This document shows, in pieces, positions 20,848-57,006 of a stretch of DNA of 64,000 bases; the first letter of the stretch is position 1; every line of letters starts with the position of its first letter. Under the pieces are notes generated by a model. It saw only the letters and a list, made by a program, of their open reading frames with translations. It was not told where the DNA came from and did no database searches. Position numbers and translations under genes: made by a program. This DNA comes from a virus (taxonomy: Duplodnaviria > Heunggongvirae > Uroviricota > Caudoviricetes): IMG/VR virus record IMGVR_UViG_2974628062_000001, positions 44,794-108,793 of that record; one strand, 5' to 3'.

Positions 20848-20876
20848 TTGACTTCCAAATTTGGGGGTGTCATAAT
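20848..20876 (+). promoter_or_regulatory. sigma-70-like promoter
   Basis: TTGACT-17-CATAAT. Confidence 0.5.
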
Positions 20877-20971
20877 GGTATACAAGTTGAAGGCTCTGTT
20901 CTTCAAGCTTCGCCCGGTGGTTGATAAGCTACTGAGCAGATGGTACACTAGAAGAACAAAGTAAGAAACAA

Positions 20972-21050
20972 GCTTTCGGGTCGGATGTAAACGGTTATCT
21001 TTCAATTTGGTGAATACAATATCCCGTTTACAACAACACATCCGAATCAT
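20972..21050 (+). ncRNA. Y RNA-like repeat element copy A (short form), abutting tRNA-Ile
   Basis: AAGCTT then CGGGTCGGATGTAAACGGTTATC; tcggatgt pairs acatccga and aaacgg pairs ccgttt around an 8-nt bulge. Confidence 0.5.
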
Positions 21051-21125
21051 TGGGGTATAGCTCGGTCTGGTTAGAGCAATCGTCTGATAAGCGATAGGTC
21101 GTGGGTTCGAATCCCACTGCCCCAA
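21051..21125 (+). tRNA. tRNA-Ile(GAU)
   Basis: acceptor tggggta/tgcccca; anticodon stem atcgt/gcgat, loop ctgataa. Confidence 0.8.
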
Positions 21126-21129
21126 CTGT

Positions 21130-21262
21130 GTGGGTCGAATGTTATCGATTATCTTCCAAACAGCGGGTTATAGGTTCGAATCCTATCCACGGCTTTCATG
21201 TCGTGGTAGCTCAATGGGTAGAGCAGCAGTCCTAAAAATACGATAGCAACAACATATCCACC
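21130..21262 (+). ncRNA. Y RNA-like element copy E (full form: 5' GGGTCGAATGTTATC, T-arm mimic, D-arm mimic, 3' CAACATATCC)
   Basis: atgttatcg pairs cgata[gcaaca]acat; internal gggttatagGTTCGAATCctatcc and tagctcaatgggtagagc. Confidence 0.5.
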
Positions 21263-21264
21263 AA

Positions 21265-21417
21265 GCTTGCGGGTCGGAGACATTCGGTTATCTTTGATTC
21301 CAATAATATCAGAATTCCGGTTCGACTCCGGATTGCGAATGAATAGGGGTAGGCCCAGCTAGCTCTGAAATGTTAGTGAATTCGCACCTTCCGATGTCAT
21401 ATATATCCGCATATAAT
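21265..21417 (+). ncRNA. Y RNA-like element copy B (full form), abutting tRNA-Ser
   Basis: AAGCTT then CGGGTCGGAGACATTCGGTTATC; cattcg pairs cgaatg; T-arm mimic ttccggTTCGACtccgga; 3' atatatccgc. Confidence 0.5.
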
Positions 21418-21504
21418 GGAGAGTCAATCCGATTGGCGACGGAACTTGTCTTGAAAACAAACGAGGTGTGAAAGCCCTTGGGGGTTCGACTCCCCCACTC
21501 TCCG
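21418..21504 (+). tRNA. tRNA-Ser(UGA), long variable arm
   Basis: acceptor ggagagt/actctcc perfect; D stem tccg/cgga; anticodon loop cttgaaa; 16-nt variable arm. Confidence 0.75.
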
Positions 21505-21526
21505 CTTCCTAGTACTAAGGAGTAGT

Positions 21527-21712
21527 ATGACTGAGACAGAAAATGTCGGTCCTTCTTCCTACCAGCTAGCAATCATCCTTGCTCTTCAGAGCAAGCACGT
21601 GTATGCTAATACGGTAGATGAGAACGAGATTGCACGACGACGTAAGGCAAGCAAGCGGGCGCGACTACAGCGCAGAGTAAATAGAAGGCTTGACACGACA
21701 CGTCGCTCGTGA
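21527..21712 (+). CDS. hypothetical basic protein
   Basis: ORF track; RBS AAGGAG. Confidence 0.35.
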   Translation: MTETENVGPSSYQLAIILALQSKHVYANTVDENEIARRRKASKRARLQRRVNRRLDTTRRS

Positions 21713-21799
21713 TAAGGTTTTAACAGAACAACAGATGGTCGGCAAGCAGGTAAGTGAGGGCTACAGGAGCTTGAACCACAACACCCTTCACCATCACAT

Positions 21800-21872
21800 G
21801 CGTCGTTAGTTCAGCGGTCAGAGCACTGCCCTGTCAAGGCAGAAGTCGCGGGTTCGAATCCCGTACGGCGCG
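21800..21872 (+). tRNA. tRNA-Asp(GUC)
   Basis: acceptor gcgtcgt/acggcgc; anticodon stem ctgcc/ggcag, loop ctgtcaa. Confidence 0.8.
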
Positions 21873-21909
21873 CATATTAAAGTAACTGTTGCCTATTGAT
21901 TGGAATGAA

Positions 21910-22113
21910 ATGGCACGCGTTAAGAAGTTTGACCTTGTCGAGCTTGACAAGGACGGCTGGTTCTCTGCTAAGGTTAGCGGAAAGTTCCGGGGTCTGGTTG
22001 AGAAGACAGGTCGTAGCAACTACACTCTCCACCTTGGCAAGGGTGACGTGACCAACTTTACTACAAAGAAGGCACTAGAGACTTGGCTCACAAACAAGTG
22101 GGCTTCTAACTAA
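21910..22113 (+). CDS. hypothetical protein
   Basis: internal ATG of track ORF 21889. Confidence 0.35.
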   Translation: MARVKKFDLVELDKDGWFSAKVSGKFRGLVEKTGRSNYTLHLGKGDVTNFTTKKALETWLTNKWASN

Positions 22114-22122
22114 ATACTTATA

Positions 22123-22190
22123 GCGTTCGGGTCGGAGGCTTTCGTTTATCATTGGCGAATAAGACGATTGCTACCAACATATCCGCTCAC
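22123..22190 (+). ncRNA. Y RNA-like element copy C (degenerate)
   Basis: CGGGTCGGAGGCTTTCGTTTATC then acgattgctaccaacatatccgc. Confidence 0.35.
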
Positions 22191-22197
22191 TAACTTC

Positions 22198-22368
22198 TAG
22201 GCCCTAACAATTTCGGGTCGGATGTTCCTCGGTTATCTAAATTATACTGTGAATATAAAGGTGTCGGTTCGAATCCGGCTAGTCTCCCTTTCGTGGAGGC
22301 TATGGTGTAATGGCAGCACTAAGAATCCCCCGAGAACGCTACATATCCGTCATAATTGTTAGGGCCTA
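22198..22368 (+). ncRNA. Y RNA-like element copy D (full form) closed by 13-bp perfect inverted repeat
   Basis: taggccctaacaa...ttgttagggccta; CGGGTCGGATGTTCCTCGGTTATC; T-arm mimic gtcggTTCGAATccggc; D-arm mimic tggtgtaatggcagcac; 3' ctacatatccg. Confidence 0.55.
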
Positions 22369-22396
22369 AGCTATTTCCAAAAACAAGGAGAGAATC

Positions 22397-22582
22397 ATGC
22401 CTCAGTACGAGAAGAAGCAGAAGATTACCGCGAATCTTGTCCGCAAGTATGGTGAAGAGCACTACCGAGTTCTTGACGACTATGAGATGATGCGGCTGAA
22501 GTGTTCTGGTAGGGTTGTTCCGGAAGGCAAGATGACTGAGAACAGCAAGTACATCATCAGCTATTACATCGAGAAGGACTAA
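22397..22582 (+). CDS. hypothetical protein
   Basis: RBS AAGGAG. Confidence 0.45.
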   Translation: MPQYEKKQKITANLVRKYGEEHYRVLDDYEMMRLKCSGRVVPEGKMTENSKYIISYYIEKD

Positions 22583-22585
22583 TTA

Positions 22586-22957
22586 ATGAAGACAGTCTGG
22601 GGTCAGGAAGTTTCTGTAGGCACCCTAGTTTATCGTGGGGCTCGTTCTGGAAGCTCTTCCGAATACAAGGTCGGTGTGGTACAGTCTTTCAGCAAGGGGA
22701 AGCCACGAGTTAACTGGCTCTATGAACAATCTGGAAAGTGGTTCTGGATTGGTGATGAGCGAGTGTGGTATGCTTACCCAAGTGCGCTGAAGAACAGCTT
22801 CGGCTCACCCGCTCCAGAGAGCATCGTTCCGATTGATGTTGACCTTGAAGAGCTTGAGCGACAGTCCGGCTTCTTTGAGCAACTAAAGTACGACACAAAG
22901 TTTGTAGACCAGTCCGAGTTCGACTATGCATTCGACAATTGGAGGAATGATGGCTGA
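22586..22957 (+). CDS. hypothetical protein
   Basis: ORF track. Confidence 0.45.
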   Translation: MKTVWGQEVSVGTLVYRGARSGSSSEYKVGVVQSFSKGKPRVNWLYEQSGKWFWIGDERVWYAYPSALKNSFGSPAPESIVPIDVDLEELERQSGFFEQLKYDTKFVDQSEFDYAFDNWRNDG

Positions 22958-23183
22958 GTGGAAAGAGCGTTTTAACGAGGCGCTAGCTGCGATGCTTCGT
23001 GAGGAATATGACCTTGACGCCGTTAAGGTTGTGTCCTTTGAAGACACTGAGCAGTCTGGTGGTTATTGTGAGACGTGTTATTACGAGTACATCGAATGTG
23101 TAATCAAGTACGAGAACTCTAAGGGTGAAACCGAAGAGTATCGCTACTATGGTTCATTCGCTGAACTTGTCGGTTCTCTCTGA
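22947..23183 (+). CDS. hypothetical protein
   Basis: RBS GGAGGA then ATG. Confidence 0.4.
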   Translation: MMAEWKERFNEALAAMLREEYDLDAVKVVSFEDTEQSGGYCETCYYEYIECVIKYENSKGETEEYRYYGSFAELVGSL

Positions 23184-23190
23184 GAATCCC

Positions 23191-23212
23191 GCCGGGTTTA
23201 CCCGGCAAGCTT
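23191..23212 (+). repeat. GC hairpin + AAGCTT intergenic motif
   Basis: gccggg-ttta-cccggc then AAGCTT. Confidence 0.6.
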
Positions 23213-23256
23213 ATAATCCATGCCCATAATGGGCCGAAACGAAAGGAAATTTCGAA

Positions 23257-24873
23257 ATGAAGAACTCTCTCGGTAAGTACGCTGCTTCTCAGAAGGCAGA
23301 GCGTACTTCAACGCCTCAGACCAAGCGGACTCCGGGACGCACTGATGAGGTAAAGAACAACGCTGGTGGTTTTACGTTTCAGGTGAACGACAAGACTCGT
23401 CTTGAGCGATTCCTGATTCTTGGAACCGACAAGGGTACGTACTACGTCAAGGAGCAGAAGCTCACCGCGCAGAACGTTGACTTTGTCCGTGAGCTGATTC
23501 GCAAGGATGAGCGCATGGTGGTTGACACTGTTGTGGATGTCTCTGTAAATGGTCGTGCGGCTAAGAATTCTCCTGCACTCTTCACCATGGCTCTGGTTAT
23601 GGCAGAGGGTCAAGATAAGGCTTACGCTCGTGAGGCTGTGACGAAGGTTGCTCGTACTTCCACTCACCTGTTCGAGTACGCACAGTACATCGATGACCTT
23701 GGTGGTTGGGGTCGTGCAAAGCGTCAGTCCGTGGCGGGTTGGTATGAGGGCAAGGATGTAGATTCTCTCGCATACCAGGCTGTAAAGTACCGTCAGCGTA
23801 ATGGCTGGACTCACCGTGACCTTTTCCGTCTCTCTCACCCAAAGGGTGTTGACGAGAAGGTTGGTAAGTTCATCCTCAATGGCGAAGTTTCCGAGACTTC
23901 TCCGCTGATTATTGAGGGTTTTGCCAAGATGCAGAAGGCGAAGTCTGTAAAGAATGTCCTTGATGTTCTTGAAGAGTTCCCTTACCTGCCTTGGGAGACC
24001 ATTCCTACGCAGTTCCTCACGGACGCTAAGGTTTGGCAGACCCTCTTTTACCAGGGTTCTCTTGGTCAGACTGCACTTCTTCGTAATGTGAAGCGATTCG
24101 CTAAGATGGGTGCATTCAATGACATGATGTTCGCTGGTGAAGTCGCTAAGCGTCTTGCTGATGCAGAGGCTATTCGAAAGGGTCGGGTTCACCCTGTCTC
24201 TTACCTGAATGCTCTTTACATCTACACCAAGGGCGAGTTCGCTCGTACTGGTTGGTCTGGCGCACGGTCTAAGGACTGGACGACCAATGCCAAGGTTGCT
24301 GGTGCTCTTGAGGCTGGTTTCTACAATGCCTTCGGGAATGTAGAGCCTGCAAACAAGCGCACGATGGTAAGTATTGACGTTAGCGCGTCAATGACTTGGC
24401 AGGCACCTGCGGGTCTTGTTGGTCTGGATTGCCGAGAGGCAGCCGCAGCAATGGCTATGGTGCTGGTTCGTTCCGAGCCTTACGTTACTGTTAATGCATT
24501 CTCTACGTATCTTCAGGATGCTGGAGTTTCCGACAGTGACTCTCTTCAGACGGTTATGAACAAGATTAGTCGTCTCCCAATGGGAGGCACTGACTGTGCA
24601 CAGCCGATGCTCTTTGCAGCTCAGAACAACATTGAGGTTGACACCTTCACGGTGTGGACTGACAATGAGACTTGGGCTGGTAGGGTGAAGCCTTTCCAGG
24701 CTCTGAAGCAGTACCGTCAGCAGACTGGTATTGACGCAAGGCTGGTTGTCGTTGGTCTTGAGGGTAACGAGTTTACCATTGCAGACCCAACAGACAAGGG
24801 AATGCTTGACGTTGTTGGATTTGACGCTAACGCCCCTGGTGTTATTGCCAACTTCAGCGCTGGTCGAGTGTGA
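23257..24873 (+). CDS. rsr: Ro60/Rsr ortholog (TROVE domain + C-terminal vWA)
   Basis: 538 aa; RFLILGTDKGTYY matches the Ro60 TROVE motif; vWA MIDAS-like DVSASMT. Confidence 0.8.
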   Translation: MKNSLGKYAASQKAERTSTPQTKRTPGRTDEVKNNAGGFTFQVNDKTRLERFLILGTDKGTYYVKEQKLTAQNVDFVRELIRKDERMVVDTVVDVSVNGRAAKNSPALFTMALVMAEGQDKAYAREAVTKVARTSTHLFEYAQYIDDLGGWGRAKRQSVAGWYEGKDVDSLAYQAVKYRQRNGWTHRDLFRLSHPKGVDEKVGKFILNGEVSETSPLIIEGFAKMQKAKSVKNVLDVLEEFPYLPWETIPTQFLTDAKVWQTLFYQGSLGQTALLRNVKRFAKMGAFNDMMFAGEVAKRLADAEAIRKGRVHPVSYLNALYIYTKGEFARTGWSGARSKDWTTNAKVAGALEAGFYNAFGNVEPANKRTMVSIDVSASMTWQAPAGLVGLDCREAAAAMAMVLVRSEPYVTVNAFSTYLQDAGVSDSDSLQTVMNKISRLPMGGTDCAQPMLFAAQNNIEVDTFTVWTDNETWAGRVKPFQALKQYRQQTGIDARLVVVGLEGNEFTIADPTDKGMLDVVGFDANAPGVIANFSAGRV

Positions 24874-24923: not shown

Positions 24924-25904
24924 ATGTACTATGGAATTGCAGGTGGCGCTCAAGTATACGTTGACTGTAAAATGAATTATCAAGATGTTGACGTATGGGA
25001 TACCATTGGCTCGTTTAAGTTGACCATGGATAAAGAATGGACGCTTACAGCCAAGTACGATGACATGACAGTCAAGGTGTCTGTGAGGAGCTACGGAAAT
25101 GATGACAGGCGAGTAGTTATCTCTACCTTGCTCGCACCCCTGAAGCAATTCGAAGACAGCGCAATTTATGTTGCCTCGGTAGCAGCCATTGAAACCAAAC
25201 TAGGCTTCAAGGTGGACAGGGATATTCCGGCGGGTATTGGTGAAATCACAGATACAATTGTGTGGAATGACAGAGTAGAGTACGAAATGTATATCAGTCA
25301 CTCCATTAGTTCTAACTGGATTAAAGAGCCACTGCTTCTTGTCGAGCATATTGAAGACACCTTTAAGATTAGGATTTCAATGACTATTGATGGTCAAAAG
25401 GCAGCCGTAGAGATTGGTGATGAATTGTGGTTGGACAATCAAGAAAATGTTCTTAATTATGCCAAGCACATGTTGATTGACTCCTTCTATGAAAAGAAGT
25501 GGTCTCCACAACTGACATATCTCAAGTATTACATGTTTGAAGATGAGATGAAGGGTGTGTCTGGCGAGTCTGCCCACATAGCCATGAAGGACATGGAATG
25601 GGCTCACATTGGATTTACTGAGGAGCTGGAAATTAAGGGTCCTCACCAGTTCACTGTGAAAAATCCGGCGGCGGAGATGCATATGTACAAGCATCCCAGC
25701 GCTGAAGACCACAGAGTGCGAGAGCTTCCAGCCCTTAACGAAAGGGTAAAGCATCCCATCACACAGCAGACAGGAACACTGAAGAGTGTTATCATTAGTT
25801 TGAACGATGGTGCTAAGTGGACCAGAGAGCAAATTGCTGACTGGCTTGAGACTCTGGACATTGACATTTCATTCAAGACTAAGGAGAATGATGAACAAGA
25901 TTGA
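24924..25904 (+). CDS. hypothetical protein
   Basis: 326 aa ORF; RBS AAGGAG. Confidence 0.5.
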   Translation: MYYGIAGGAQVYVDCKMNYQDVDVWDTIGSFKLTMDKEWTLTAKYDDMTVKVSVRSYGNDDRRVVISTLLAPLKQFEDSAIYVASVAAIETKLGFKVDRDIPAGIGEITDTIVWNDRVEYEMYISHSISSNWIKEPLLLVEHIEDTFKIRISMTIDGQKAAVEIGDELWLDNQENVLNYAKHMLIDSFYEKKWSPQLTYLKYYMFEDEMKGVSGESAHIAMKDMEWAHIGFTEELEIKGPHQFTVKNPAAEMHMYKHPSAEDHRVRELPALNERVKHPITQQTGTLKSVIISLNDGAKWTREQIADWLETLDIDISFKTKENDEQD

Positions 25905-26172: not shown

Positions 26173-26244
26173 GCTTCCGTAGGCTAATGGATAAACCCTG
26201 GTGCTACGAACGCCATATTGTCGGTTCGAATCCGGCCGGAAGCG
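26173..26244 (+). tRNA. tRNA-Arg(ACG)
   Basis: acceptor gcttccg/cggaagc perfect; anticodon loop ctacgaa; T-arm gtcggTTCGAATccggc. Confidence 0.8.
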
Positions 26245-26352
26245 CAATGGTGGACCGTACAATCCACCAAGTCACTGTAGTTTAAGTATGGGAATAAAAC
26301 ATCCGTCCTAGGATAAGGACGGATGCACACGCGACCCGTGCCAGTGACGCTT

Positions 26353-27672: not shown

Positions 27673-27709
27673 CAGTGACACGAACTCTTGCTATGATAGA
27701 AGAGTTCCT

Positions 27710-27782
27710 GGGGGCTTAGCTCAGTTGGTAGAGCGCTTGCCTTGCAAGCAAGAGGTGGGGGGTTCGATTCCCCCAGTCTCCA
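27710..27782 (+). tRNA. tRNA-Ala(UGC)
   Basis: G3-U70 present; anticodon stem cttgc/gcaag, loop cttgcaa. Confidence 0.8.
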
Positions 27783-28087
27783 CTGACCATATTTGGTCTA
27801 CAAAGGGGGGGTGTACAGAATGTTGTACACACTACTAGTAATCTTGGTAATCATCGTTATCTTGATGCTTATCTTCTAAGGGGGTAAGTATGAGAGGCAG
27901 CGATGTAGTATGGACGATTGCAGGAGTTCTCTTTGCGATTGCTCTAATCGTCTGGCTTGCGGACAACGTAAGCTTCTGATAGAGTAAAGCTAGAAGGCTC
28001 TGAGGGAGGTCTGGTTAACACTGAAGTTGGTTAGGTGTTAACATCGGGTGAGACGCGGAACCAAACCTACGTCACTTTCCCTCACAT

Positions 28088-28160
28088 GCTCCGGTAGCTC
28101 AGTTGGCAGAGCAGGCGGCTCTTAACCGTCGTGTCGGGAGTTCAAGTCTCCCTCGGAGTA
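28088..28160 (+). tRNA. tRNA-Lys(CUU)
   Basis: acceptor gctccgg/tcggagt; anticodon loop ctcttaa; T-loop TTCAAGT. Confidence 0.7.
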
Positions 28161-28164
28161 CGTA

Positions 28165-28205
28165 TAATTAAAACACCCTCGTTGGTTTCCGGCGGGGGTT
28201 TTATT
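28165..28205 (+). terminator. probable terminator
   Basis: GC hairpin then GGGGGTTTTATTTTT. Confidence 0.4.
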
Positions 28206-28421
28206 TTTAGGGATGTCTCATGATGAGCGACGCTATTGACAAGGCAGTTGAAGCATGGCATACTTCAGGTGATGAAGAGACCCGCTCACTGCAAGAGTAT
28301 CTGGACATGAATGATGCTGAATTCCAGGTGTGGGTGGTTACAGGCAGGATGACTGAATCCTACCTTGACAGGCATCCAGAGATGATGTAAGATATAAGAA
28401 CAAGGCGTCGAGAGACGCTAT

Positions 28422-28494
28422 GGCTCGGTGGTGAAATCGGTTATCACGTTTCCCTCATAAGGAAGTATTTCGGGTTCGAGTCCCGGCTGAGCTA
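28422..28494 (+). tRNA. tRNA-Met(CAU) (elongator or Ile2-type)
   Basis: acceptor ggctcgg/ctgagct; 3-bp D stem with long D loop; anticodon loop ctcataa. Confidence 0.65.
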
Positions 28495-28496
28495 CT

Positions 28497-28572
28497 GCGG
28501 AGTGGACAAGTGGTAAGTCGCTGGCCTCATAAGCCAGAGAACGTCTCAAATGGTTCGAATCCTACCTCCGCC
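28497..28572 (+). tRNA. second CAU-anticodon tRNA, atypical T stem
   Basis: acceptor gcggagt/cctccgc; anticodon stem ctggc/gccag perfect; T stem aatgg/cctac pairs poorly. Confidence 0.5.
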
Positions 28573-28756
28573 ACTATGAATAACACAAGTTAAAAACCTT
28601 CTTCGTCAGAAGGAGGTGATTAAATTGCCAGGACCAATGTCCCGTCCAGATGGACACCGAGAGTCTTGCGAAGAGCGTAAAGCTCGTGGTAAGATGCTCA
28701 TGAATGGAAAGACTCCGAAGACCGGAAAGTCTTCAAGGTGAGCGCAAGCTCATCCT

Positions 28757-28828
28757 GTCCCTTTAGCTTAGTTGGAAAAGCGTTCGGTTGAAGCCCGAAA
28801 GTCTGCGGTTCGATTCCGCGAGGGGACA
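28757..28828 (+). tRNA. tRNA-Phe(GAA)
   Basis: acceptor gtccctt/aggggac; anticodon stem ttcgg/ccgaa, loop ttgaagc. Confidence 0.8.
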
Positions 28829-28855
28829 CTTTATCGTCTAACAAAGGATAGTACA

Positions 28856-29005
28856 ATGGGTTGGTTTAAGAGTGAACCCAAGGAAACGCCCAGAGAGACG
28901 ACCGATGAAGAAGAGGCAGAGGCTAGCTTGAAGTTCGCTACTGCTTCTGGTAGATTTGGTCCAGTAGGAAGGCGAGATGCAACATGGACGACATCCGGCG
29001 AGTAA
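28856..29005 (+). CDS. hypothetical protein
   Basis: internal ATG of track ORF; upstream part overlaps tRNA-Phe. Confidence 0.3.
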   Translation: MGWFKSEPKETPRETTDEEEAEASLKFATASGRFGPVGRRDATWTTSGE

Positions 29006-29199
29006 GCGATGAAGACCTGAACCGTCCTGGTCCGGGTTCACTTACAGACGAACGAGCTGCTGAAGCACTTGGTCTTGAAATGGATGAGCTTATCCGTATC
29101 ATGGATGTGTGGATGGAGTTCGCTGGTGAAGTTGCACGAGAGCGCATGAGGCGTCGCAAGGAACGGCTTGCCAACAAGGATAGAACGGTGGTAGAGTAG
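28984..29199 (+). CDS. hypothetical protein
   Basis: ORF track. Confidence 0.35.
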   Translation: MDDIRRVSDEDLNRPGPGSLTDERAAEALGLEMDELIRIMDVWMEFAGEVARERMRRRKERLANKDRTVVE

Positions 29200-29204
29200 T
29201 GAGC

Positions 29205-29357
29205 ATGACACCGGAACAGCATGAAGCATTCAAGGCTCGTGCAGAAGCGGCGGGTATCCCGATGAGCTTCCCTGAAGTCACAGAAGAGCGCAAGGAAGAG
29301 ATTCGACAGTACTTCCGAGACAACCCTCCAGTTGACTATCTGTCCTTGATGAAGTAA
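29205..29357 (+). CDS. hypothetical small protein
   Basis: 50 aa ORF below track threshold. Confidence 0.3.
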   Translation: MTPEQHEAFKARAEAAGIPMSFPEVTEERKEEIRQYFRDNPPVDYLSLMK

Positions 29358-29368
29358 GATGGTAGTAC

Positions 29369-29380
29369 CGCCCGAAAGGG
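29369..29380 (+). other. GC tetraloop hairpin 4 nt upstream of tRNA-Tyr
   Basis: gccc-gaaa-gggc. Confidence 0.5.
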
Positions 29381-29384
29381 CAAT

Positions 29385-29470
29385 GGATGTATAACGCGTA
29401 ATTGGTAGCGCCACGGCCTGTAAAGCCGTTGTCCGAAAGGGCTCTGGGGGTTCAAGTCCCTCTGCATCCA
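29385..29470 (+). tRNA. tRNA-Tyr(GUA), long variable arm
   Basis: acceptor ggatgta/tgcatcc; anticodon stem acggc/gccgt, loop ctgtaaa. Confidence 0.8.
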
Positions 29471-29472
29471 CT

Positions 29473-29544
29473 GTGTCGGTAGCTTAATGGTAGAGCGTTG
29501 CGTTGTGGTCGCAATGGTTGCGGGTTCAAATCCCGTCCGACACC
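29473..29544 (+). tRNA. tRNA-His(GUG), possibly genome-encoded CCA
   Basis: acceptor gtgtcgg/ccgacac perfect; anticodon loop ttgtggt; followed by C then CCA. Confidence 0.75.
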
Positions 29545-29547
29545 CCA

Positions 29548-29618
29548 GTCCCTATGTGCGAGAGGCTAGCAAGCAGTCTGCAAAACTGTACACGTCGGTT
29601 CGAATCCGACTAGGGGCT
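29548..29618 (+). tRNA. tRNA-Cys(GCA)
   Basis: acceptor gtcccta/taggggc; anticodon stem gcagt/actgt, loop ctgcaaa. Confidence 0.65.
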
Positions 29619-29639
29619 CTATACATTCCCCACCTGAAT

Positions 29640-29975
29640 GTAGAAGGTGAGTCTGGACCTTTCCAGCTAAATGAATTAGATTCAGCCTGTGTAAGTGGTA
29701 CGGGACTCCTCTAGCAGGGAGATTTGCCCAAGGAAATAAGCCCGTGAAAGTCCTTGGCACCACAGACTAACATGTGCTAGCATGGTGGTGGTTCCGAAGA
29801 AGAGATTAGTCACCTCCATTCGGTTTTGTTATTGGGAACTGACGGACTATGTCCTAAGCCCTAAAGGGTGTTTCACCAGTCGTCACCTTGTAAATCTAGG
29901 CTGGAGCGGGTAATGTAAGTCAGGGGCGTGGAGCCCAAACCTTACAGAATGGCCAAGGTTAGTCACCTTCCCGTG
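29640..29975 (+). ncRNA. rnpB: candidate RNase P RNA (rnpB-like, type A-like)
   Basis: ~335 nt ORF-free; GAAAGUCC-UUGGCACCACAG resembles P4/CR-I GGAAAGUCCGGGCUCCAUAG; 3' ACAGAAUGGCCAAGGUUAGUCACC resembles ACAGAACCCGGCUUAUCGGUCAG with covarying CCUUGG/CCAAGG; terminal gaaggtgagt pairs agtcaccttc. Confidence 0.5.
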
Positions 29976-30018
29976 AGATAACTCGTGGTACCCCATCACA
30001 CGTAAACCTGGGGCACAT

Positions 30019-30093
30019 TCCTCCGTAGCATAACGGCAGTGCAGCAGACTGTTAATCTGTACAGTCCTGGTTCGAATCCAGGCGGGGGAGCCA
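30019..30093 (+). tRNA. tRNA-Asn(GUU) with encoded CCA
   Basis: acceptor tcctccg/cggggga; anticodon loop ctgttaa; 3' GCCA. Confidence 0.75.
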
Positions 30094-30227
30094 CACGCAC
30101 AGAATTGCGACAAGAACGGATTTGGAACTCACATAATAACCATGGTAAAAGTGAGGAAAGATGAAGGGGAGATAGTGAAGAGCGGTGGGGCTGCGTAATG
30201 GCGGCTATGCCACCCGCGTGGGACCAA

Positions 30228-30298
30228 GCCTCTATGGTGTAAGGGATGCACAATAGTCTTCGGAACTATTAGTCCGGGTTCGAATCCTGGTGGGGGTA
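30228..30298 (+). tRNA. tRNA-Arg(UCG)-like, wobble-rich acceptor
   Basis: anticodon stem atagt/actat perfect, loop cttcgga; acceptor gcctcta/tgggggt has 3 G-U. Confidence 0.45.
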
Positions 30299-30300
30299 CT

Positions 30301-30338
30301 AGCCGATAATTCCAAATGAATTATCGGCTTTCTTTATA
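30301..30338 (+). terminator. intrinsic terminator inside tRNA island
   Basis: 11-bp stem agccgataatt/aattatcggct then TTCTTTAT. Confidence 0.65.
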
Positions 30339-30339
30339 G

Positions 30340-30411
30340 GCTCTTGAAGTTCAATGGATGAACAACTCCCTCCTAAGGAGCAGGTTGCTGGTTCGAATCC
30401 AGTCAGGAGCA
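30340..30411 (+). tRNA. tRNA-Arg(CCU)
   Basis: acceptor gctcttg/caggagc; D stem gttc/gaac; anticodon loop ctcctaa. Confidence 0.65.
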
Positions 30412-30415
30412 CTGC

Positions 30416-30512
30416 AAAGAGTAAATGGGGGTACTGTGGTTCGACTCCACAGGTCTAGGGGTCTAGTTTAAAATCATGGCCAGAGCCGAAGGTTCGATTC
30501 CTTCACTCTTTG
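30416..30512 (+). ncRNA. tRNA-like element with two T-arm hairpins (97 nt)
   Basis: acceptor-like aaagagt/actcttt perfect 7 bp; ctgtggTTCGACTccacag and gaaggTTCGATTccttc. Confidence 0.4.
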
Positions 30513-30786
30513 CTCAAGGGGTAGCTTGGTTTCGACTTTGCTAATCAGGAATATAGACGCAGCCGTTCTTTGGTAAGAGAACTGAAACAGACCAAACACA
30601 TAAATGCAAACTCTAAGAATGCATCTGCCTACGCCCTAGCGGCGTGATGGCCGGGTTAGTGGGGGACCTAGGAACAGAATGCCCCACCCAAAACAGCTCT
30701 CCGGAGCACTTGTGAAGATTGTGTGCAACACCTAGTAGTGTGATTGACATGGCTGTACATCGGATATATGCTAGATAGTGAAGGAC

Positions 30787-30811
30787 GCGGGTTCGACTCC
30801 CGCCTACTCCA
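30787..30811 (+). other. orphan tRNA T-arm + 3' acceptor strand; only 5' partner is ggggtag at 30518
   Basis: gcgggTTCGACTcccgc then ctactcc A. Confidence 0.4.
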
Positions 30812-30826
30812 CAAGATAGGAAGAAA

Positions 30827-31006
30827 ATGAAAGTATCAAATCTCTACATCTACGGTTCCAGTGAGTTCCTTCGTAGACTAGAAGAAGAGTACGTATTCCT
30901 GGGAAGGTCTGTTAGACTTGAAGAGGACCGACTTATCGTCTTCGCACTTCCGCGAAGGAAGAAGAACACCAAGAAGTCTCCCAAGGGCAAGTCACGCAGG
31001 CGTTGA
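30827..31006 (+). CDS. hypothetical small basic protein
   Basis: 59 aa; RBS AGGAAG; basic C-tail. Confidence 0.35.
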   Translation: MKVSNLYIYGSSEFLRRLEEEYVFLGRSVRLEEDRLIVFALPRRKKNTKKSPKGKSRRR

Positions 31007-31585
31007 CAAAGCCGGACGGGGTTTGATAGACTTCTATTGGTCAGCACGAAAGAGTTGACCAAGCTTGTACTGAACAACCATACGGCGTAAGCCCGGCAAG
31101 GCGTCACGGCCAAACCGGCAGACCAAAATTTCCTGGCCAAGGGTGGTTGACTCGGTATTGACAGTTCGCACGTGACTCTGATACTGTCAAGTTGTAGCAC
31201 ACGGACAAGGCTTAGGCGGATGAAACAAGCCGGTGGGATGCGAGTGGTGATGCTACAATAAACGGGAAGTAAGCCATCTATACCTACGACACTGCTTCCT
31301 AAGTTGTCACCCATAAGGTCATAAACCGTGAGGGAAACCACAGCGGATAATCTTTCCCAGCTAGGTATAGACGTGGGGACCTGAGGGTGATAAGCTTCTA
31401 CAGCAGGCAGGTCGAACGCCTTAGACAAGTATTCAGGGCACTGAACAAGCACGTAACACCCATTCGACAGGGTACAAAGTTACCGCCTGATTGAATACAT
31501 GCTGTAGGCTGTGAGGGTAACCGGAAATGCTCTCACAAGCTTCCTTTGTAAGCTTCAAATATTGCCAATCAAACAAAGGATTACC

Positions 31586-32497
31586 ATGCTGTACATTGTT
31601 CTCGCAAGTATTCTGGTTATTGCAATTCTCATCCTTGGGGCTATGTTCCTCTTCGGAAAGAATCCTGACAATGACTATGGTGTCCCAGTCAAGTCCATTG
31701 GTCTTGTTGGCGGCATCGTTGCAACGGTCGCGCTTCTTCTTCTGACTTTCTTCATGTCGCTTACCACTGTTGGTGCGCGTTCTGTTGGAATTCAGACGGC
31801 ATTCGGTCGTTACCAGAACACTCTCGATAACGGTCTTCAGTTGACCGCTCCGTGGTCCTCTACTGAGGAGTTCTCTACCCAGGTTCAGTACCTTGACCTT
31901 GACTCTACTGATGGTGGAGATGACGCTGTAAGCGTTACTTTCAAGGGCGGTGGCGGTGGTACCGTTTCGCTCACCCCTCGTTGGTCTATCAATGAGGACA
32001 AGGCGGAAGACCTGTGGAAGAAGTACAAGACGTTTGACAAGGTTCGTAATCAGCTCGTGAATTCTTCTGCGAAGGATTCTGTTCGTGTGGTAGTGTCCAA
32101 GTACACTCCGAATGACGCTCGTGATGGTGAGAATCTTCGTCCGATTGCTGACGAGATTCAGAGGGACCTTGCTCAGTCTCTTGCTGATGACGGAGTGAAC
32201 ATTGACTCTGTTAGCATCAAGAAGATTACGCTTGACGCTCGTTCTCAGGCTTCTCTTGATAAGATTGTTGAGGCTAACAACAACGTCGAGCGTGCAAAGG
32301 CTGAGCGTGAGCGTGCCAAGATTGACGCTGAGACTGCTAAGATTCGTGAGCAGTCGGGTCAGCTTTCCGAGAAGGCTGCACAGCGTTTCTGCCTTGAGAT
32401 GATGAACAACTGGGATGTAAAGAAGAACGGTCCTCTTCAGGCCGGTTTTGTTTGCCCCGGTACTAATTCTTCGGGCTACGTGACTACTAACAAGTAA
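31586..32497 (+). CDS. SPFH/band-7 (prohibitin/HflK-like) membrane protein
   Basis: N-terminal TM then TTVGARSVGIQTAFGRYQNTLDNGLQLTAPW band-7 pattern; start at internal ATG 31586. Confidence 0.6.
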   Translation: MLYIVLASILVIAILILGAMFLFGKNPDNDYGVPVKSIGLVGGIVATVALLLLTFFMSLTTVGARSVGIQTAFGRYQNTLDNGLQLTAPWSSTEEFSTQVQYLDLDSTDGGDDAVSVTFKGGGGGTVSLTPRWSINEDKAEDLWKKYKTFDKVRNQLVNSSAKDSVRVVVSKYTPNDARDGENLRPIADEIQRDLAQSLADDGVNIDSVSIKKITLDARSQASLDKIVEANNNVERAKAERERAKIDAETAKIREQSGQLSEKAAQRFCLEMMNNWDVKKNGPLQAGFVCPGTNSSGYVTTNK

Positions 32498-35011: not shown

Positions 35012-35365
35012 ATGTACCACGGGGTTGGTATCCCGAACGGTTCAAGCTATAATGATGCTATGGAGATTAATAAGCATCGTTACGAGGGGAGCTTTGTCAG
35101 GCGTCACAGTCTGTCTCTGGCTCTCCTTTTTGTTTTCTTGCTCCAGTCAGTCATCGTATGGTACAGTGGCTACTCAGATTGGAAGCAAGACCAGATTACA
35201 CACCATCAAGATGTTGCAATTTGGCCGGGTTTCGTGATTTACTACCTGTACCAGATGTCAGTCAGCATTGTAGCAGATACATATGGAGCATTGCTTCTGG
35301 TACTATTTGCTAAATGGTTTTACGAAAAGGGAAGTCCAGAGTCAAACGACGAGGAGAAGAAATGA
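35012..35365 (+). CDS. hypothetical membrane protein
   Basis: two hydrophobic segments; 35007 frame is an alternative. Confidence 0.4.
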   Translation: MYHGVGIPNGSSYNDAMEINKHRYEGSFVRRHSLSLALLFVFLLQSVIVWYSGYSDWKQDQITHHQDVAIWPGFVIYYLYQMSVSIVADTYGALLLVLFAKWFYEKGSPESNDEEKK

Positions 35366-50934: not shown

Positions 50935-51121
50935 CAGACAAAAGAAGCCAAAGCCCATGGGTAGTGGAAACTACACACTTTGCAAGAAGTGTGGTGGGTA
51001 TGGTACAGTAGTTGAAACGAAGCATTACAGAGGCAAGCGTCTGGCCAACAAGAACAATGAAGTTGACCTCTTCGTGAGATGTCCAAGATGTCTCGGTGGA
51101 GGCTGGACAGTCGCCAAGTAG
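50927..51121 (+). CDS. hypothetical zinc-ribbon protein
   Basis: CKKCGG...CPRC. Confidence 0.4.
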   Translation: MSDRQKKPKPMGSGNYTLCKKCGGYGTVVETKHYRGKRLANKNNEVDLFVRCPRCLGGGWTVAK

Positions 51122-51135
51122 TATGCTATGATGGA

Positions 51136-51236
51136 TACATCGGGTCGGAGATAAATGGTTATCATGGATAAAATTGACTCATAATCAATCGGGTTTCGAT
51201 ACCCAACTCCGTTTATCACACCACATCCGATGTAGT
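51136..51236 (+). ncRNA. Y RNA-like repeat element copy F, abutting tRNA-Gly
   Basis: CGGGTCGGAGATAAATGGTTATC; ataaatgg pairs ccgtttat; tcgga pairs tccga across bulge cacaccaca; internal T-arm-like gggtTTCGATAccc. Confidence 0.5.
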
Positions 51237-51319: not shown

Positions 51320-51356
51320 CCCCGCTGGTAAAAACTAGCGGGGCTTCGTTGTTTCT
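51320..51356 (+). terminator. intrinsic terminator
   Basis: ccccgctgg...ctagcgggg then CTTCGTTGTTTC. Confidence 0.55.
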
Positions 51357-56346: not shown

Positions 56347-57006
56347 ATGCGCGAGTACCCTAAGATTGATAATCTGTACAAGCGTAACCCGGACAAGAAG
56401 TCTCAGCTTCTTGTTGGTAAGTACACCCGTCCGGAATTTGCACTGATTGATTCTTGGGATGTTACGGAGAAGGTTGACGGAACCAATGTTCAACTGAAGT
56501 TCCACAAGGTTTTCAACGGCAGTTTTGATTACAATGGTCGTACCGAGCGTGCTCAGTTCACTATTGGCCAGGAGAATTTCCTTGAAGAGCTTGGTGAGCG
56601 GATTCGTGGTAAGGTTCTCAACACCATCAATGCGTTTGGTCTGGATGACCTGACCGTGTATGGTGAGCTGTACGGTCCTAAGATTCAGGCGGGCGGTAAC
56701 TATTCAGACAGCCTCGGATTCCGAGCGTTTGACATGCTGGTGAATGACAAGGTATGGTTGTCACCAGAGGATGTGCGCAAGAATGCAGAGTACTTTGAGG
56801 TTGAGCAGGTTCCGAATCTTGGAACTATGACCACAGAGGATATCTTCTACCTTGTTGCAAATGGCTTCAAGTCTACGTTCTCAAGGAATGAAGACTACGA
56901 TGCAGAGGGTGTTATCGCAAAGCCGTCGTTCAATCTGTATGACCAGCGGGGCTCACGAGTAATGTTTAAGCTCAAGACTTGTGACCTCAAGCATCTTCAC
57001 TACTGA
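56347..57006 (+). CDS. Rnl2-like ATP-dependent RNA ligase (nucleotidyltransferase domain only)
   Basis: motif I KVDGTN; later GELYGPKIQ resembles T4 Rnl2 GEFAGPGIQ. Confidence 0.55.
   Translation: MREYPKIDNLYKRNPDKKSQLLVGKYTRPEFALIDSWDVTEKVDGTNVQLKFHKVFNGSFDYNGRTERAQFTIGQENFLEELGERIRGKVLNTINAFGLDDLTVYGELYGPKIQAGGNYSDSLGFRAFDMLVNDKVWLSPEDVRKNAEYFEVEQVPNLGTMTTEDIFYLVANGFKSTFSRNEDYDAEGVIAKPSFNLYDQRGSRVMFKLKTCDLKHLHY

What the first reader, a model, noticed from the sequence alone, without database searches (positions are those of the whole stretch)
20972..24873. Ro60/Rsr gene accompanied by a family of Y RNA-like structured repeats inside the tRNA array
A TROVE+vWA Ro60 ortholog (23257-24873) lies about 0.9-2.3 kb from five copies of a repeated noncoding element at 20972, 21130, 21265, 22123 and 22198. 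A sixth copy sits at 51136, about 26 kb downstream of rsr. Each copy starts CGGGTCGGA-N8-G(G/T)TTATC. The N8 spacer covaries with a distal 3' segment: taaacgg/ccgttta, cattcg/cgaatg, ataaatgg/ccgtttat, gttcctcgg/ccgagaac. A second helix, tcggatgt/acatccga, forms across a 6-9 nt bulge, giving a long bulged rod made by the 5' and 3' ends. The full-length copies enclose a T-arm mimic (GGTTCGAATCC hairpin) and a D-arm mimic (tagctcaatgggtagagc or tggtgtaatggcagcac) and end in a shared CAACATATCC(A/G)C box. Copy D is closed by a perfect 13-bp inverted repeat. This is the bacterial YrlA design: a Ro-binding stem plus a tRNA-like module. The 5' motif also resembles the conserved metazoan Y RNA 5' end GGUCCGA-N8-GGUUAUC as I recall it. 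Copies A, B and F end 0-3 nt before a tRNA 5' end, so RNase P could release them. Multiple divergent Y RNA paralogs clustered with rsr in a phage tRNA island would be unusual.
Basis: partly seen in the sequence, partly recalled or inferred. Interest (0 to 1): 0.85.

Follow-up and report, generated by a model that had tools for sequence, protein, structure and literature searches.

The report
Phage Ro60 gene with six Y RNAs
A Streptomyces phage carries the RNA-binding protein Ro60 plus six unannotated small structured RNAs of the Y RNA type, two of them tRNA look-alikes; this partnership is already known from bacteria and other phages, but the set here is unusually large and is scattered through the phage's tRNA genes.

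Summary
The window is Streptomyces phage Blueeyedbeauty. ORF 23257-24873 is a clear Ro60/Rsr ortholog. Six same-strand noncoding elements share one module: an outer stem N(n)GGGU/AUCCN'(n), an internal loop carrying CG(G/A)A, a second helix whose two strands covary, then GUUAUC and a variable domain.

All six sit at syntenic sites in three phage genera, and compensatory changes support their helices. Copies B and E have the full YrlA design: T arm, 7-8 bp acceptor-like stem-loop and D arm. B also shows Levitt-pair covariation.

A covariance model built only from B orthologs recovers the other five copies, the published mycobacteriophage ET08 YrlA, and arrays of 2-7 such elements beside Ro60 in unrelated viral contigs. 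A Ro60-less relative (Muntaha) lacks them.

These are therefore Y RNA genes, new members of a known kind, and none is annotated as a Y RNA. The 5' half of E is deposited as "tRNA-His". Binding to Ro60 and expression remain untested.

- The conserved closing helix is GGGU/AUCC, not tcggatgt/acatccga.
- The inverted repeat is 15 bp and belongs to the copy at 22198.
- Several Y RNAs next to a phage rsr is common, not unusual.

The parts
23257..24873 (+). Ro60/Rsr ortholog (GenBank gp103, 'Ro-like RNA binding protein'). TROVE ring plus vWA domain with a DxSxS MIDAS motif (DVSASM).
   Evidence: Pfam TROVE 2.6e-40 and vWA_Ro60 1.2e-64. PDB 2nvo Rsr 1e-121, with alignment. NCBIfam Rsr 4.9e-152. GenBank annotation.
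20975..21046 (+). Y RNA A: minimal form of 72 nt. Outer stem UUCGGGU/AUCCGAA, helix 2 GUAAACGG/CCGUUUAC, and a short apical hairpin. Ends 4 nt before tRNA-Ile.
   Evidence: R1 hit 20972-21049, 43.1 bits, E=1e-7. Present at the syntenic site in 10 phages, where other genera carry a larger apical domain.
21130..21261 (+). Y RNA B: YrlA-type.
- 5' motif GUCGAAUG, which is GNCGAAN1G exactly
- T arm 21170-21186
- 7-bp acceptor-like stem-loop 21187-21206
- U8-A9
- D arm 21209-21224
Starts 3 nt after tRNA-Ile.
   Evidence: Rfam YrlA partial hit 21163-21227, 34 bits, E=3.3e-5. In orthologs, 31 pairs are 97.7% paired and 15 show changes on both sides; 0/500 shuffles reach this.
21268..21411 (+). Y RNA C: Ro-binding module plus T arm (21316-21332) and three further helices. 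Ends 6 nt before tRNA-Ser.
   Evidence: 36 pairs, 96.9% paired, 16 with changes on both sides, slid controls 29-46%. R1 27.0 bits, E=5e-6 with filters off.
22128..22185 (+). Y RNA D: minimal form of 58 nt. Outer stem is only 5 bp (CGGGU/AUCCG).
   Evidence: R1 21.3 bits, E=1.2e-4 with filters off. Conserved at the syntenic site, but only 1 of 12 pairs shows a compensatory change.
22198..22368 (+). Y RNA E with its outer clamp.
- 15-bp perfect inverted repeat 22198-22212/22354-22368 around the core 22214-22349
- Anticodon-arm-like 'V' hairpin 22242-22258 (loop CUGUGAA)
- T arm 22263-22279
- 8-bp acceptor-like stem-loop 22280-22302
- D arm 22305-22319
Its 5' half (22215-22287) is annotated in GenBank as tRNA-His(gtg).
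   Evidence: (-60.8 kcal/mol, z=-3.99). 39 pairs, 11 compensatory. R1 38.4 bits, E=1.6e-6. ARAGORN does not call it a tRNA and Rfam tRNA gives 23.4 bits, below the cut-off of 29.
51136..51234 (+). Y RNA F: 10-bp outer stem UACAUCGGGU/AUCCGAUGUA, helix 2 GAUAAAUGG/CCGUUUAUC, and a T-like hairpin GGGUUUCGAUACCC. Lies 26 kb downstream of rsr and 2 nt before tRNA-Gly(tcc).
   Evidence: z=-2.71. 19 pairs, 94.7% paired, 7 with changes on both sides, 0/500 shuffles. R1 26.4 bits, E=1.2e-3.
51104..51132 (+). Promoter-like site for F: TGGACA-17-TATGAT with an upstream TG. The -10 element ends 3 nt before the F outer stem.
   Evidence: The TGnTATGAT / TGnTACAGT element is conserved in six relatives.
51320..51343 (+). 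Terminator-like hairpin plus T run. It closes a compact unit of promoter, Y RNA F, tRNA-Gly(tcc) and terminator.
20921..20949 (+). Promoter-like site TTGATA-17-TACACT (TG), about 25 nt upstream of A. It could drive the run A, tRNA-Ile, B, C, tRNA-Ser.
   Evidence: The sequence is conserved in relatives. No terminator-like site was found between 20265 and 25200.
22586..22957 (+). gp101, a small protein (phrog_2596, function unknown) that travels with Ro60. Possible partner; function not established.
   Evidence: Homologs sit just upstream of Ro60 in Loccivirinae and in BE2-type phages and contigs. None is present in the Ro60-less Muntaha syntenic region, which keeps gp98, gp100 and gp102 homologs.

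Best explanation
These are six genes for Y RNA-type noncoding RNAs that partner with the phage-encoded Ro60 (gp103).

Shown by computation:
- Each RNA closes its 5' and 3' ends into the same module: an outer stem ending in GGGU/AUCC, an internal loop presenting CG(G/A)A on the 5' strand, a second covarying helix, and a UUAUC hinge.
- On that scaffold each paralog carries a different apical domain. B and E carry a tRNA-like body (T arm, acceptor-like stem-loop, D arm), C a T arm plus extra helices, F a T-like hairpin, and A and D short hairpins.

Inferred from the X. laevis, D. radiodurans, S. Typhimurium, M. smegmatis and Thermus phage phiLo systems:
- Ro60 binds the conserved GGUCGGA 5' strand and stem on its outer surface.
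- The apical domain gates the Ro60 cavity and/or tethers Ro60 to a partner such as host PNPase. The phage could thereby redirect structured-RNA (tRNA/rRNA) decay or quality control during infection.

Inferred from the anatomy:
- The RNAs are cut out of tRNA-containing precursors. RNase P at the downstream tRNA would define the 3' ends of A, C and F. 3'-end processing of tRNA-Ile (for example by RNase Z) would free the 5' end of B.
- The 15-bp clamp of E looks like an RNase III site.
- F has its own promoter and terminator.
For: Motif enrichment:
- 5 exact matches against 0.01 expected, all on the rsr strand.

Conservation and covariation:
- All six elements are conserved at syntenic sites in Annadreamyvirus, Gilsonvirus and Faustvirus.
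- B: 15 of 31 pairs show changes on both sides; 97.7% of cells are paired against 84% in shuffles and 32-47% when slid.
- C: 16 of 36 pairs. F: 7 of 19. E: 11 of 39.
- Levitt pair in B orthologs: A15:U48 in six sequences and G15:C48 in four (alignment A1).

Link to the known family:
- Model R1, built from B orthologs only, finds A, E and F, and C and D with filters off. It finds no other full-length match in the 64-kb window.
- R1 hits the published ET08 YrlA at 45.4 bits, E=3.5e-8.
- Rfam YrlA scores copy B at 34 bits and ET08 at 37.4 bits.

Association with Ro60:
- 25 of 120 IMG/VR loci that match the 15-nt motif carry Ro60 within the held flanks. The motif copies are on the Ro60 strand in all 25, often in arrays of 2-7. 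For comparison, Ro60 occurs in 361 of 50,697 phage records.
- 28 elements from these lineages, aligned to R1, are 96.8% paired, with 29 of 31 pairs changed on both sides (this alignment was fitted to the model).
- Ro60-less Muntaha has no element in 52 kb of the tRNA region and only a ~28-nt remnant at the F site.

Precedents:
- YrlA/YrlB, the GNCGAAN0-1G motif, the YUAY box and RNase P/CCA processing (PMC4201824).
- phiLo Ro60 binds its own Yrl1 and Yrl2 and forms ternary complexes with host PNPase (PMC12135203).
Against: - There are no expression, processing or Ro60-binding data for any of the six.
- No element reaches Rfam's YrlA gathering score (34 against 69 bits), and the metazoan Y_RNA model gives no hit at E<=10.
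- Five of the six have GUCGGA rather than the published GNCGAA.
- D has only a 5-bp closing stem and almost no covariation.
- F lies 26 kb from rsr, outside the 4-kb criterion used for YrlA.
- Annadreamy has lost Ro60 but keeps A to D, half of E, and F. That deletion is recent, since Limpid of the same species keeps Ro60.
- The effector (PNPase or another) is pure inference.
Confidence: 0.82

Rival explanations
1. The elements are processing or spacer structures that only serve maturation of the polycistronic tRNA transcripts (recognition sites for RNase P, Z, E or III). They would have no dedicated role with Ro60.
For: A, B, C and F abut tRNA genes with gaps of 2-6 nt. No terminators lie within the cluster. 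E carries a 15-bp clamp that resembles an RNase III site.
Against: D and E lie between protein-coding genes, not next to tRNAs. The same module occurs in arrays directly upstream of Ro60 in contigs with no tRNAs between the copies, for example L003 and L031. In Ro60-less Muntaha, tRNA-Ile, tRNA-Ser and tRNA-Asp are packed 3-7 nt apart with no such spacers. The module matches the published Ro60-associated YrlA.
Confidence: 0.08
2. They are decayed tRNA genes or fused tRNA-dimer pseudogenes left behind in a fast-evolving tRNA island.
For: B and E contain T and D arms. The 5' half of E is deposited as tRNA-His(gtg), and its Sham ortholog as a 62-nt tRNA-Ser. The T arm of E is identical over 18 nt to that of tRNA-Arg(acg). 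Rfam tRNA gives sub-threshold hits.
Against: The non-tRNA helices (outer stem and helix 2) and the 5'/3' boxes are conserved and covary across three genera, which pseudogenes would not do. The arm order is permuted (T, acceptor-like, D) exactly as in YrlA. ARAGORN calls none of them. A and D have no tRNA parts at all.
Confidence: 0.03
3. E, possibly with D, acts mainly in cis as a structured leader of the gp100-gp102-Ro60 operon. One example would be an autoregulatory Ro60-binding site or an mRNA-stabilising 5' structure, rather than a free RNA.
For: The clamp of E ends 29 nt before the gp100 start codon. No promoter or terminator separates it from the downstream genes. The position is conserved in all relatives.
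Against: The same architecture occurs at sites with no downstream protein-coding gene: B, and F, which is followed by a tRNA and a terminator. M. smegmatis YrlA and YrlB lie in the same position upstream of rsr and are processed to free RNAs (PMC4201824). This reading does not exclude the main explanation.
Confidence: 0.07

Closest known systems
YrlA (Y RNA-like A; Rfam RF02553) of S. Typhimurium, M. smegmatis and mycobacteriophages such as ET08 (Chen et al. 2014, PMC4201824)
   Same: Copies B and E share these features with YrlA:
- A 5' Ro60-binding motif followed by a UUAU box
- A permuted tRNA-like body in the order variable region, T arm, acceptor-like stem-loop, D arm
- Location on the rsr strand within 2.3 kb of the gene
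- A 7-bp acceptor-like stem, as in M. smegmatis
B also shows Levitt-pair covariation. A model built from B orthologs hits the ET08 YrlA at E=3.5e-8.
   Different: The host range is Streptomyces phages. The 5' strand is GGGUCGGA in E, against GNCGAA in the published motif. Both strands of the closing helix are recognisable, with a conserved 3' box AUAUCC. E carries an anticodon-arm-like hairpin and an extra 15-bp clamp. Both copies fall below Rfam's gathering score.
YrlB-type short Y RNAs (S. Typhimurium, M. smegmatis) and Yrl1/Yrl2 of Thermus phage phiLo (PMC12135203)
   Same: Copies A, C, D and F share the Ro-binding module and lack a full tRNA-like body. C and F keep a T arm or T-like hairpin, as M. 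smegmatis YrlB does. They appear to be co-transcribed with other RNAs upstream of rsr. In phiLo, phage Ro60 binding to phage-encoded Yrl RNAs has been shown experimentally.
   Different: There are four such paralogs here, and five in Gilsonvirus, instead of one. They are interleaved with tRNA genes. One (F) is 26 kb away with its own promoter and terminator.
Metazoan Y RNAs (for example human Y1 and Y4; Rfam RF00019)
   Same: The 5' layout is the same: GGUC-N-GA, then an 8-9 nt helix strand, then GUUAUC. Human Y4 reads GGUCCGA-UGGUAGUGG-GUUAUC and phage copy E reads GGUCGGA-UGUUCCUCG-GUUAUC. The overall form is a rod closed by the 5' and 3' ends.
   Different: The metazoan covariance model gives no hit. 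In the phage RNAs the CGGA stretch lies in an internal loop rather than in a helix with a single bulged C. Metazoan Y RNAs have no tRNA-like domain and are transcribed by Pol III with a U tail bound by La.
D. radiodurans Yrn1/Yrn2
   Same: Both are bacterial-type Y RNAs with both strands of the Ro-binding helix retained and a T-arm-like element. Yrn1 tethers Rsr to PNPase, which is the functional model adopted here.
   Different: The order and orientation of the tRNA-like parts differ (Chen et al. 2014). No sequence-level match was tested here.

Membership tests
YrlA (RF02553 / Chen et al. 2014) | Conserved 5' motif GNCGAAN0-1G | tested here: met
   Copy B has GUCGAAUG, an exact match. A, C, D, E and F have GUCGGA(U/G), which differs at one position. 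Orthologs in Faustvirus vary further (GGGUCGAU, GGGUCGUA).
YrlA (RF02553 / Chen et al. 2014) | Conserved YUAY at the start of the variable region | tested here: met
   UUAU(C) follows helix 2 in all six copies and in nearly all orthologs. The exceptions are the Gilsonvirus B orthologs and two E orthologs, which read UUAAC. The box is also present in ET08.
YrlA (RF02553 / Chen et al. 2014) | tRNA-like body in the order T arm, acceptor-like stem-loop, D arm | tested here: met
   Met for B (21170-21224) and E (22263-22319), and the helices covary. Not met for A, C, D and F, which are therefore not YrlA in the strict sense.
YrlA (RF02553 / Chen et al. 2014) | Levitt pair 15:48 kept as G:C or A:U | tested here: met
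   B orthologs have A15:U48 in six sequences and G15:C48 in four (columns 95 and 50 of A1). E has A15:U48 with no variation.
YrlA (RF02553 / Chen et al. 2014) | Encoded within about 4 kb of rsr on the same strand | tested here: met
   A to E lie 0.9-2.3 kb upstream of rsr on the same strand. F is on the same strand but 26 kb downstream, so it does not meet this criterion.
YrlA (RF02553 / Chen et al. 2014) | Score at or above Rfam's gathering threshold (69 bits) | tested here: not met
   Copy B scores 34 bits. The published ET08 YrlA scores only 37.4 bits and other Ro60-adjacent elements 35-51 bits. The threshold therefore excludes known actinophage members as well.
YrlA (RF02553 / Chen et al. 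2014) | Detectable homology to a published member | tested here: met
   Model R1, built from B orthologs only, matches ET08 L020 4180-4327 over its full length at 45.4 bits, E=3.5e-8.
Y RNA (functional definition: ncRNA bound by Ro60) | Physical association with Ro60 | not testable with these tools
   Only indirect evidence is available. These are co-occurrence with Ro60 in 25 of 120 motif-bearing viral loci and absence from Ro60-less Muntaha.
Y RNA (functional definition: ncRNA bound by Ro60) | Stem formed by the 5' and 3' ends that carries the conserved Ro60-contact strand (GGUCCGA-like) | tested here: met
   The outer stem and helix 2 are supported by covariation. The 5' strand GGUCGGA differs from the vertebrate GGUCCGA at one base.
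Metazoan Y_RNA (RF00019) | Match to the family covariance model | tested here: not met
   No RF00019 match at E<=10 in 20850-22450, and none at gathering score anywhere in the window.
tRNA | Cloverleaf recognised by tRNA finders | tested here: not met
   ARAGORN calls none of the six. Rfam tRNA gives 23.4, 23.1 and 16.7 bits, all below the cut-off of 29. The GenBank entry tRNA-His(gtg) at 22215-22287 is the 5' half of E.

The most novel reading that the evidence does not exclude
The six to seven paralogs may be a toolkit of interchangeable adaptors on one Ro60-binding scaffold. Each apical domain would point the single phage Ro60 at a different partner or substrate class. The tRNA-like B and E would be cleaved by RNase P and given a CCA tail, becoming split tRNA mimics that plug into the phage's own tRNA supply and repair island (32 tRNAs, tmRNA, two RNA ligases, polynucleotide kinase), or that act as decoys for tRNA-targeting host defences.

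A related evolutionary reading is that phage tRNA arrays are where YrlA-type RNAs arise and are exchanged. E shares an identical 18-nt T arm with tRNA-Arg(acg) and has recombined with it in Annadreamy.
Probability: 0.15. Interest if true: 0.7.

Novelty: new member of a known kind. Interest (0 to 1): 0.42.

Why it matters
Y RNAs and Ro60 are conserved from bacteria to humans, yet what they do during phage infection is unknown. This phage group offers an unusually rich and tractable case.

- It has six or seven Y RNA paralogs on one conserved scaffold with different apical domains, and covariation-supported structures for most of them.
- It includes a self-contained unit of promoter, Y RNA, tRNA and terminator.
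- It has a natural Ro60 deletion: Annadreamy lacks Ro60, while Limpid of the same species keeps it. That pair allows a direct phenotype comparison.

There is also a practical point for annotation. These elements are absent from GenBank records, or are deposited as tRNA-His or tRNA-Ser. Rfam's YrlA threshold misses the actinophage members I tested (copy B, the published ET08 YrlA, and Ro60-adjacent elements in L003 and L004). The simple motif GGGUCG-N(8-14)-KUUAUC ... AUAUCC, or a retrained covariance model, would recover them and the 2-7-copy arrays beside Ro60 in viral metagenomes.

Tried and rejected
- Rfam at gathering score found only tRNAs and tmRNA in the window. At E<=10 there was only a partial YrlA hit on B and no metazoan Y_RNA hit. 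Because the published ET08 YrlA also fails the threshold, I treated the Rfam miss as uninformative.
- A fixed-spacing motif search found one copy only. A variable gap was needed.
- The search for related loci with the single Ro60 protein returned only 4 viral loci and 1 genomic locus. The DNA-motif scan and the annotated phage collection were far more productive.
- My first automatic end-finding picked T-arm ATCC sites as false 3' ends. This was corrected.
- MAFFT misaligned the copy-A orthologs because other genera carry a ~50-nt larger apical domain, so I claim no covariation statistic for A.
- The supplement tables of Chen et al. 2014 and two reviews were not held. I could not check which 22 phages were listed or how many RNAs were reported per phage.
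- Rejected, tRNA pseudogenes: the non-tRNA helices covary.
- Rejected, MITE-like mobile element for E: there is a single locus, and the arms covary at that same site across genera.
- Rejected, small ORFs overlapping the elements (for example 22222-22362): the substitution pattern is RNA-like and the indels are not in multiples of three.
- gp104, downstream of Ro60, has no family. Its only PDB hit is a non-significant match to DcpS (E=0.053).

Full report
**Source and setting.** The window is identical to Streptomyces phage Blueeyedbeauty (MH536814/NC_048720, 130,473 bp; window position = record position minus 44,793). This is a Stanwilliamsviridae/Loccivirinae phage. The window holds 32 tRNA genes and a tmRNA, all on the + strand. 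GenBank annotates ORF 23257-24873 as a 'Ro-like RNA binding protein' and annotates nothing as a Y RNA.

**The protein.** The 538-aa product matches Pfam TROVE (2.6e-40) and vWA_Ro60 (1.2e-64). It also matches NCBIfam Rsr (4.9e-152), PHROG 850 and the solved D. radiodurans Rsr over its full length (1e-121). The MIDAS DxSxS motif is present. By tblastn, Ro60 occurs in 361 of 50,697 phage records: 212 Mycobacterium, 119 Streptomyces, 11 Gordonia, 10 Microbacterium and a few others.

**The repeats are real.** GGGTCGRA-N4-14-KTTATC occurs five times, all on the + strand, against 0.01 expected. The sixth copy (B, 21132) reads GGGTCGAA-TGTTATCGATTATC. Reading the sequence and pairing the ends gives a common module with these parts:
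- an outer stem N(n)GGGU/AUCCN'(n), 5-10 bp long;
- an internal loop with CG(G/A)A on the 5' side and (C)AACAU-like bases on the 3' side;
- helix 2, formed by the 'N8' spacer and a distal segment;
- GUUAUC, followed by a variable apical domain.

The limits are A 20975-21046, B 21130-21261, C 21268-21411, D 22128-22185, E 22214-22349 (inside a perfect 15-bp inverted repeat, 22198-22212/22354-22368) and F 51136-51234. Single-sequence folds recover this module. Z-scores are -2.0 to -2.7 for A, B and F, and -4.0 for E with its clamp.

**Comparative support.** I fetched the syntenic regions of eleven related phages. All six elements are present at the same positions in Annadreamyvirus, Gilsonvirus and Faustvirus, and Gilsonvirus has a seventh between C and tRNA-Ser.

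| Element | Pairs | Cells paired | Pairs changed on both sides | Controls |
|---|---|---|---|---|
| B | 31 | 97.7% | 15 | 84% in shuffles (0/500 reach it); 32-47% when slid |
| C | 36 | 96.9% | 16 | 29-46% when slid |
| F | 19 | 94.7% | 7 | 0/500 shuffles reach it |
| E | 39 | not computed | 11 | none run |
| D | 12 | 99.1% | 1 | none run |

For E, the outer clamp changes sequence but not pairing between genera. D varies little. The A orthologs differ by a ~50-nt insertion and were misaligned, so I make no statistical claim for A.

**Family identity.** B and E have the permuted tRNA-like body that defines YrlA.
- In B, the T arm (21170-21186) abuts a 7-bp acceptor-like stem-loop (21187-21206). 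U8-A9 and a canonical D arm (21209-21224) follow.
- The tertiary Levitt pair covaries among B orthologs: A15:U48 in six sequences and G15:C48 in four (A1). Chen et al. describe this same pattern for YrlA (PMC4201824).
- The 5' motif of B, GUCGAAUG, is an exact GNCGAAN0-1G. The other copies have GUCGGA.
- UUAU(C) corresponds to the conserved YUAY box, whose UA forms a kink in the S. Typhimurium YrlA crystal structure (bioRxiv 10.1101/312249).

Rfam's YrlA model gives B only 34 bits against a gathering score of 69. It gives the published mycobacteriophage ET08 YrlA only 37.4 bits, so the threshold is not informative for actinophages.

A covariance model built solely from the ten B orthologs (R1) gave the following results:
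- It recovers A (43.1 bits), E (38.4) and F (26.4) in a 285-kb search.
- With filters off it recovers C (27.0) and D (21.3). The next-best hits are only T arms of true tRNAs.
- It hits the ET08 YrlA over its full length (45.4 bits, E=3.5e-8).
- It hits many Ro60-adjacent elements in viral contigs (up to 67 bits) and one upstream of rsr in an Iamiaceae MAG.

Twenty-eight such hits aligned to the model are 96.8% paired, with 29 of 31 pairs changed on both sides. That alignment was fitted to the model, so it leans towards the structure. One informative pair is the U of GGGU with the A of AUCC, which becomes C-G in other lineages.

**Association with Ro60.**
- 25 of them encode a Ro60 homolog in the held flanks, at 33-79% identity.
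- In all 25 the motif copies lie on the Ro60 strand. Most are within 1 kb upstream, and many form arrays of 2-7.
- L003, found independently through its Ro60 protein, has seven tandem elements with its own lineage-specific boxes, 5' GAGCCGGA and 3' CUUACGCCC.
- ET08 shows two further stretches with the same boxes flanking its YrlA. I read these from the sequence and did not test them.
- Muntaha, a Loccivirinae phage without Ro60, has tRNA-Ile, tRNA-Ser and tRNA-Asp packed 3-7 nt apart and no element in 52 kb. Only a ~28-nt GGGUC...AUCC remnant sits upstream of its tRNA-Gly(tcc).

**Resemblance to animal Y RNAs.** Human Y4 starts GGCUGGUCCGAUGGUAGUGGGUUAUC (PMC7012775) and Y1 starts GGCTGGTCCGAAGGTAGTGAGTTATC (PMC3928194). 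Both follow the pattern GGUC-N-GA, then 9 nt, then GUUAUC. Copy E has the same layout: GGUCGGA, then 9 nt, then GUUAUC. This is motif-level similarity only. The metazoan model does not match, and in the phage RNAs CGGA sits in an internal loop.

**Expression architecture (inferred).**
- A promoter-like site (20921-20949) precedes A, and no terminator-like site follows before rsr. A, tRNA-Ile, B, C and tRNA-Ser, and perhaps everything through Ro60, may therefore form one precursor. M. smegmatis YrlA and YrlB are likewise cut from a single precursor.
- F is a compact unit: an extended -10 promoter (51104-51132) ends 3 nt before the stem of F, tRNA-Gly follows 2 nt after F, and a terminator-like hairpin sits at 51320-51343. 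The promoter is conserved in relatives.

**Likely mechanism (inferred).** Ro60 binds the conserved 5' strand and stem. The apical domains gate the Ro60 cavity or tether partners such as host PNPase. This follows D. radiodurans and S. Typhimurium and the phage phiLo Ro60-Yrl-PNPase complexes. The phage also encodes two RNA ligases and a polynucleotide kinase. That recalls the rsr-yrlBA-rtcBA RNA-repair operon of Salmonella, a link I make from general knowledge and from the titles of PMC7790460 and PMC9879122.

**Novelty.** Phage Y RNA-like genes are known. Chen et al. 2014 reported them in 22 phages, and phiLo Yrl1 and Yrl2 were reported in 2025. No paper in the held library describes them in Streptomyces phages, and the GenBank records do not annotate them. 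I file this as new members of a known kind. The notable points are copy number, dispersal among tRNA genes, the independent F unit, and mis-annotation as tRNAs.

Noticed in passing
window 22215-22287; L014 4169-4230: GenBank gene 99, 'tRNA-His(gtg)', of Blueeyedbeauty is the 5' half of Y RNA E. The 'anticodon arm' in that call is the V hairpin with loop CUGUGAA. Phage Sham annotates the orthologous stretch as a 62-nt 'tRNA-Ser(cga)'. The phage has a genuine tRNA-His(gtg) at 29473-29547.
   Followed up: yes
window 22261-22279 and 26219-26237; L008 4308-4442: Annadreamy lacks Ro60 because of a ~4-kb deletion. The junction lies in an 18-nt stretch, TGTCGGTTCGAATCCGGC, that is identical between the T arm of Y RNA E and the T arm of tRNA-Arg(acg). 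The deletion removes the 3' half of E, gp100-102, Ro60, gp104-105 and most of tRNA-Arg(acg). Limpid, of the same species, is intact.
   Followed up: yes
window 22586-22957: gp101 (123 aa, phrog_2596, no Pfam, NCBIfam or PDB match) has homologs immediately upstream of Ro60 in Loccivirinae and in BE2-type phages and contigs (L019, L063, L144). It is missing from the Ro60-less Muntaha region, which keeps the neighbouring gp98, gp100 and gp102 homologs. It may be a Ro60 partner.
   Followed up: partly
window 24924-25904: gp104 (326 aa), directly downstream of Ro60, is kept there across Loccivirinae but diverges fast (21-34% identity outside the genus Annadreamyvirus). It has no family match. Its only PDB hit is a non-significant match to the scavenger decapping enzyme DcpS (E=0.053).
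   Followed up: partly
window about 35362-36411, 36947-37837 and 56347-57006: GenBank annotates an RNA ligase (gp141), a polynucleotide kinase (gp144) and a second RNA ligase (gp201) within the tRNA island. Together with the tmRNA and Ro60 they form an RNA repair and quality-control set.
   Followed up: no
L003 4019-4930; L031 and L113 (IMG/VR contigs); L020 4085-4440: Other phage Ro60 loci carry tandem arrays of up to seven Y RNA-like elements directly upstream of the gene. Each lineage has its own 5' and 3' box pair, for example GAGCCGGA...CUUACGCCC in L003 and GGCCGA...CAUGUCU in ET08. ET08 appears to have three elements, not just the published YrlA.
   Followed up: partly
L009 2308-2405; also L010, L011, L012 and L016: Gilsonvirus phages have a seventh element between C and tRNA-Ser, with the 3' box changed to AUACCC. 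The GGGU/ACCC stem therefore has G-C where the other copies have G-U.
   Followed up: partly
window 20875-20964: A conserved 29-aa ORF (MVYKLKALFFKLRPVVDKLLSRWYTRRTK) lies between tRNA-Trp and Y RNA A. It is annotated in some relatives. The promoter-like site upstream of A lies inside its 3' end.
   Followed up: no
window 26246-26352: The spacer between tRNA-Arg(acg) and tRNA-Arg(tct) can form several hairpins. These include GGUGGA/UCCACC, AUCCGUCC/GGACGGAU and a long-range GUCACUG/CAGUGAC pairing. It is conserved in Annadreamy. It has no Y-type 5' box and no R1 hit.
   Followed up: no
window 30815-31585, 29620-30018 and 27784-28087: These are large unannotated gaps in the tRNA island. The 770-nt gap after the tmRNA contains an unannotated 200-aa ORF on the minus strand (30850-31452). 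Rfam at E<=0.1 finds nothing new in 27700-31700.
   Followed up: partly
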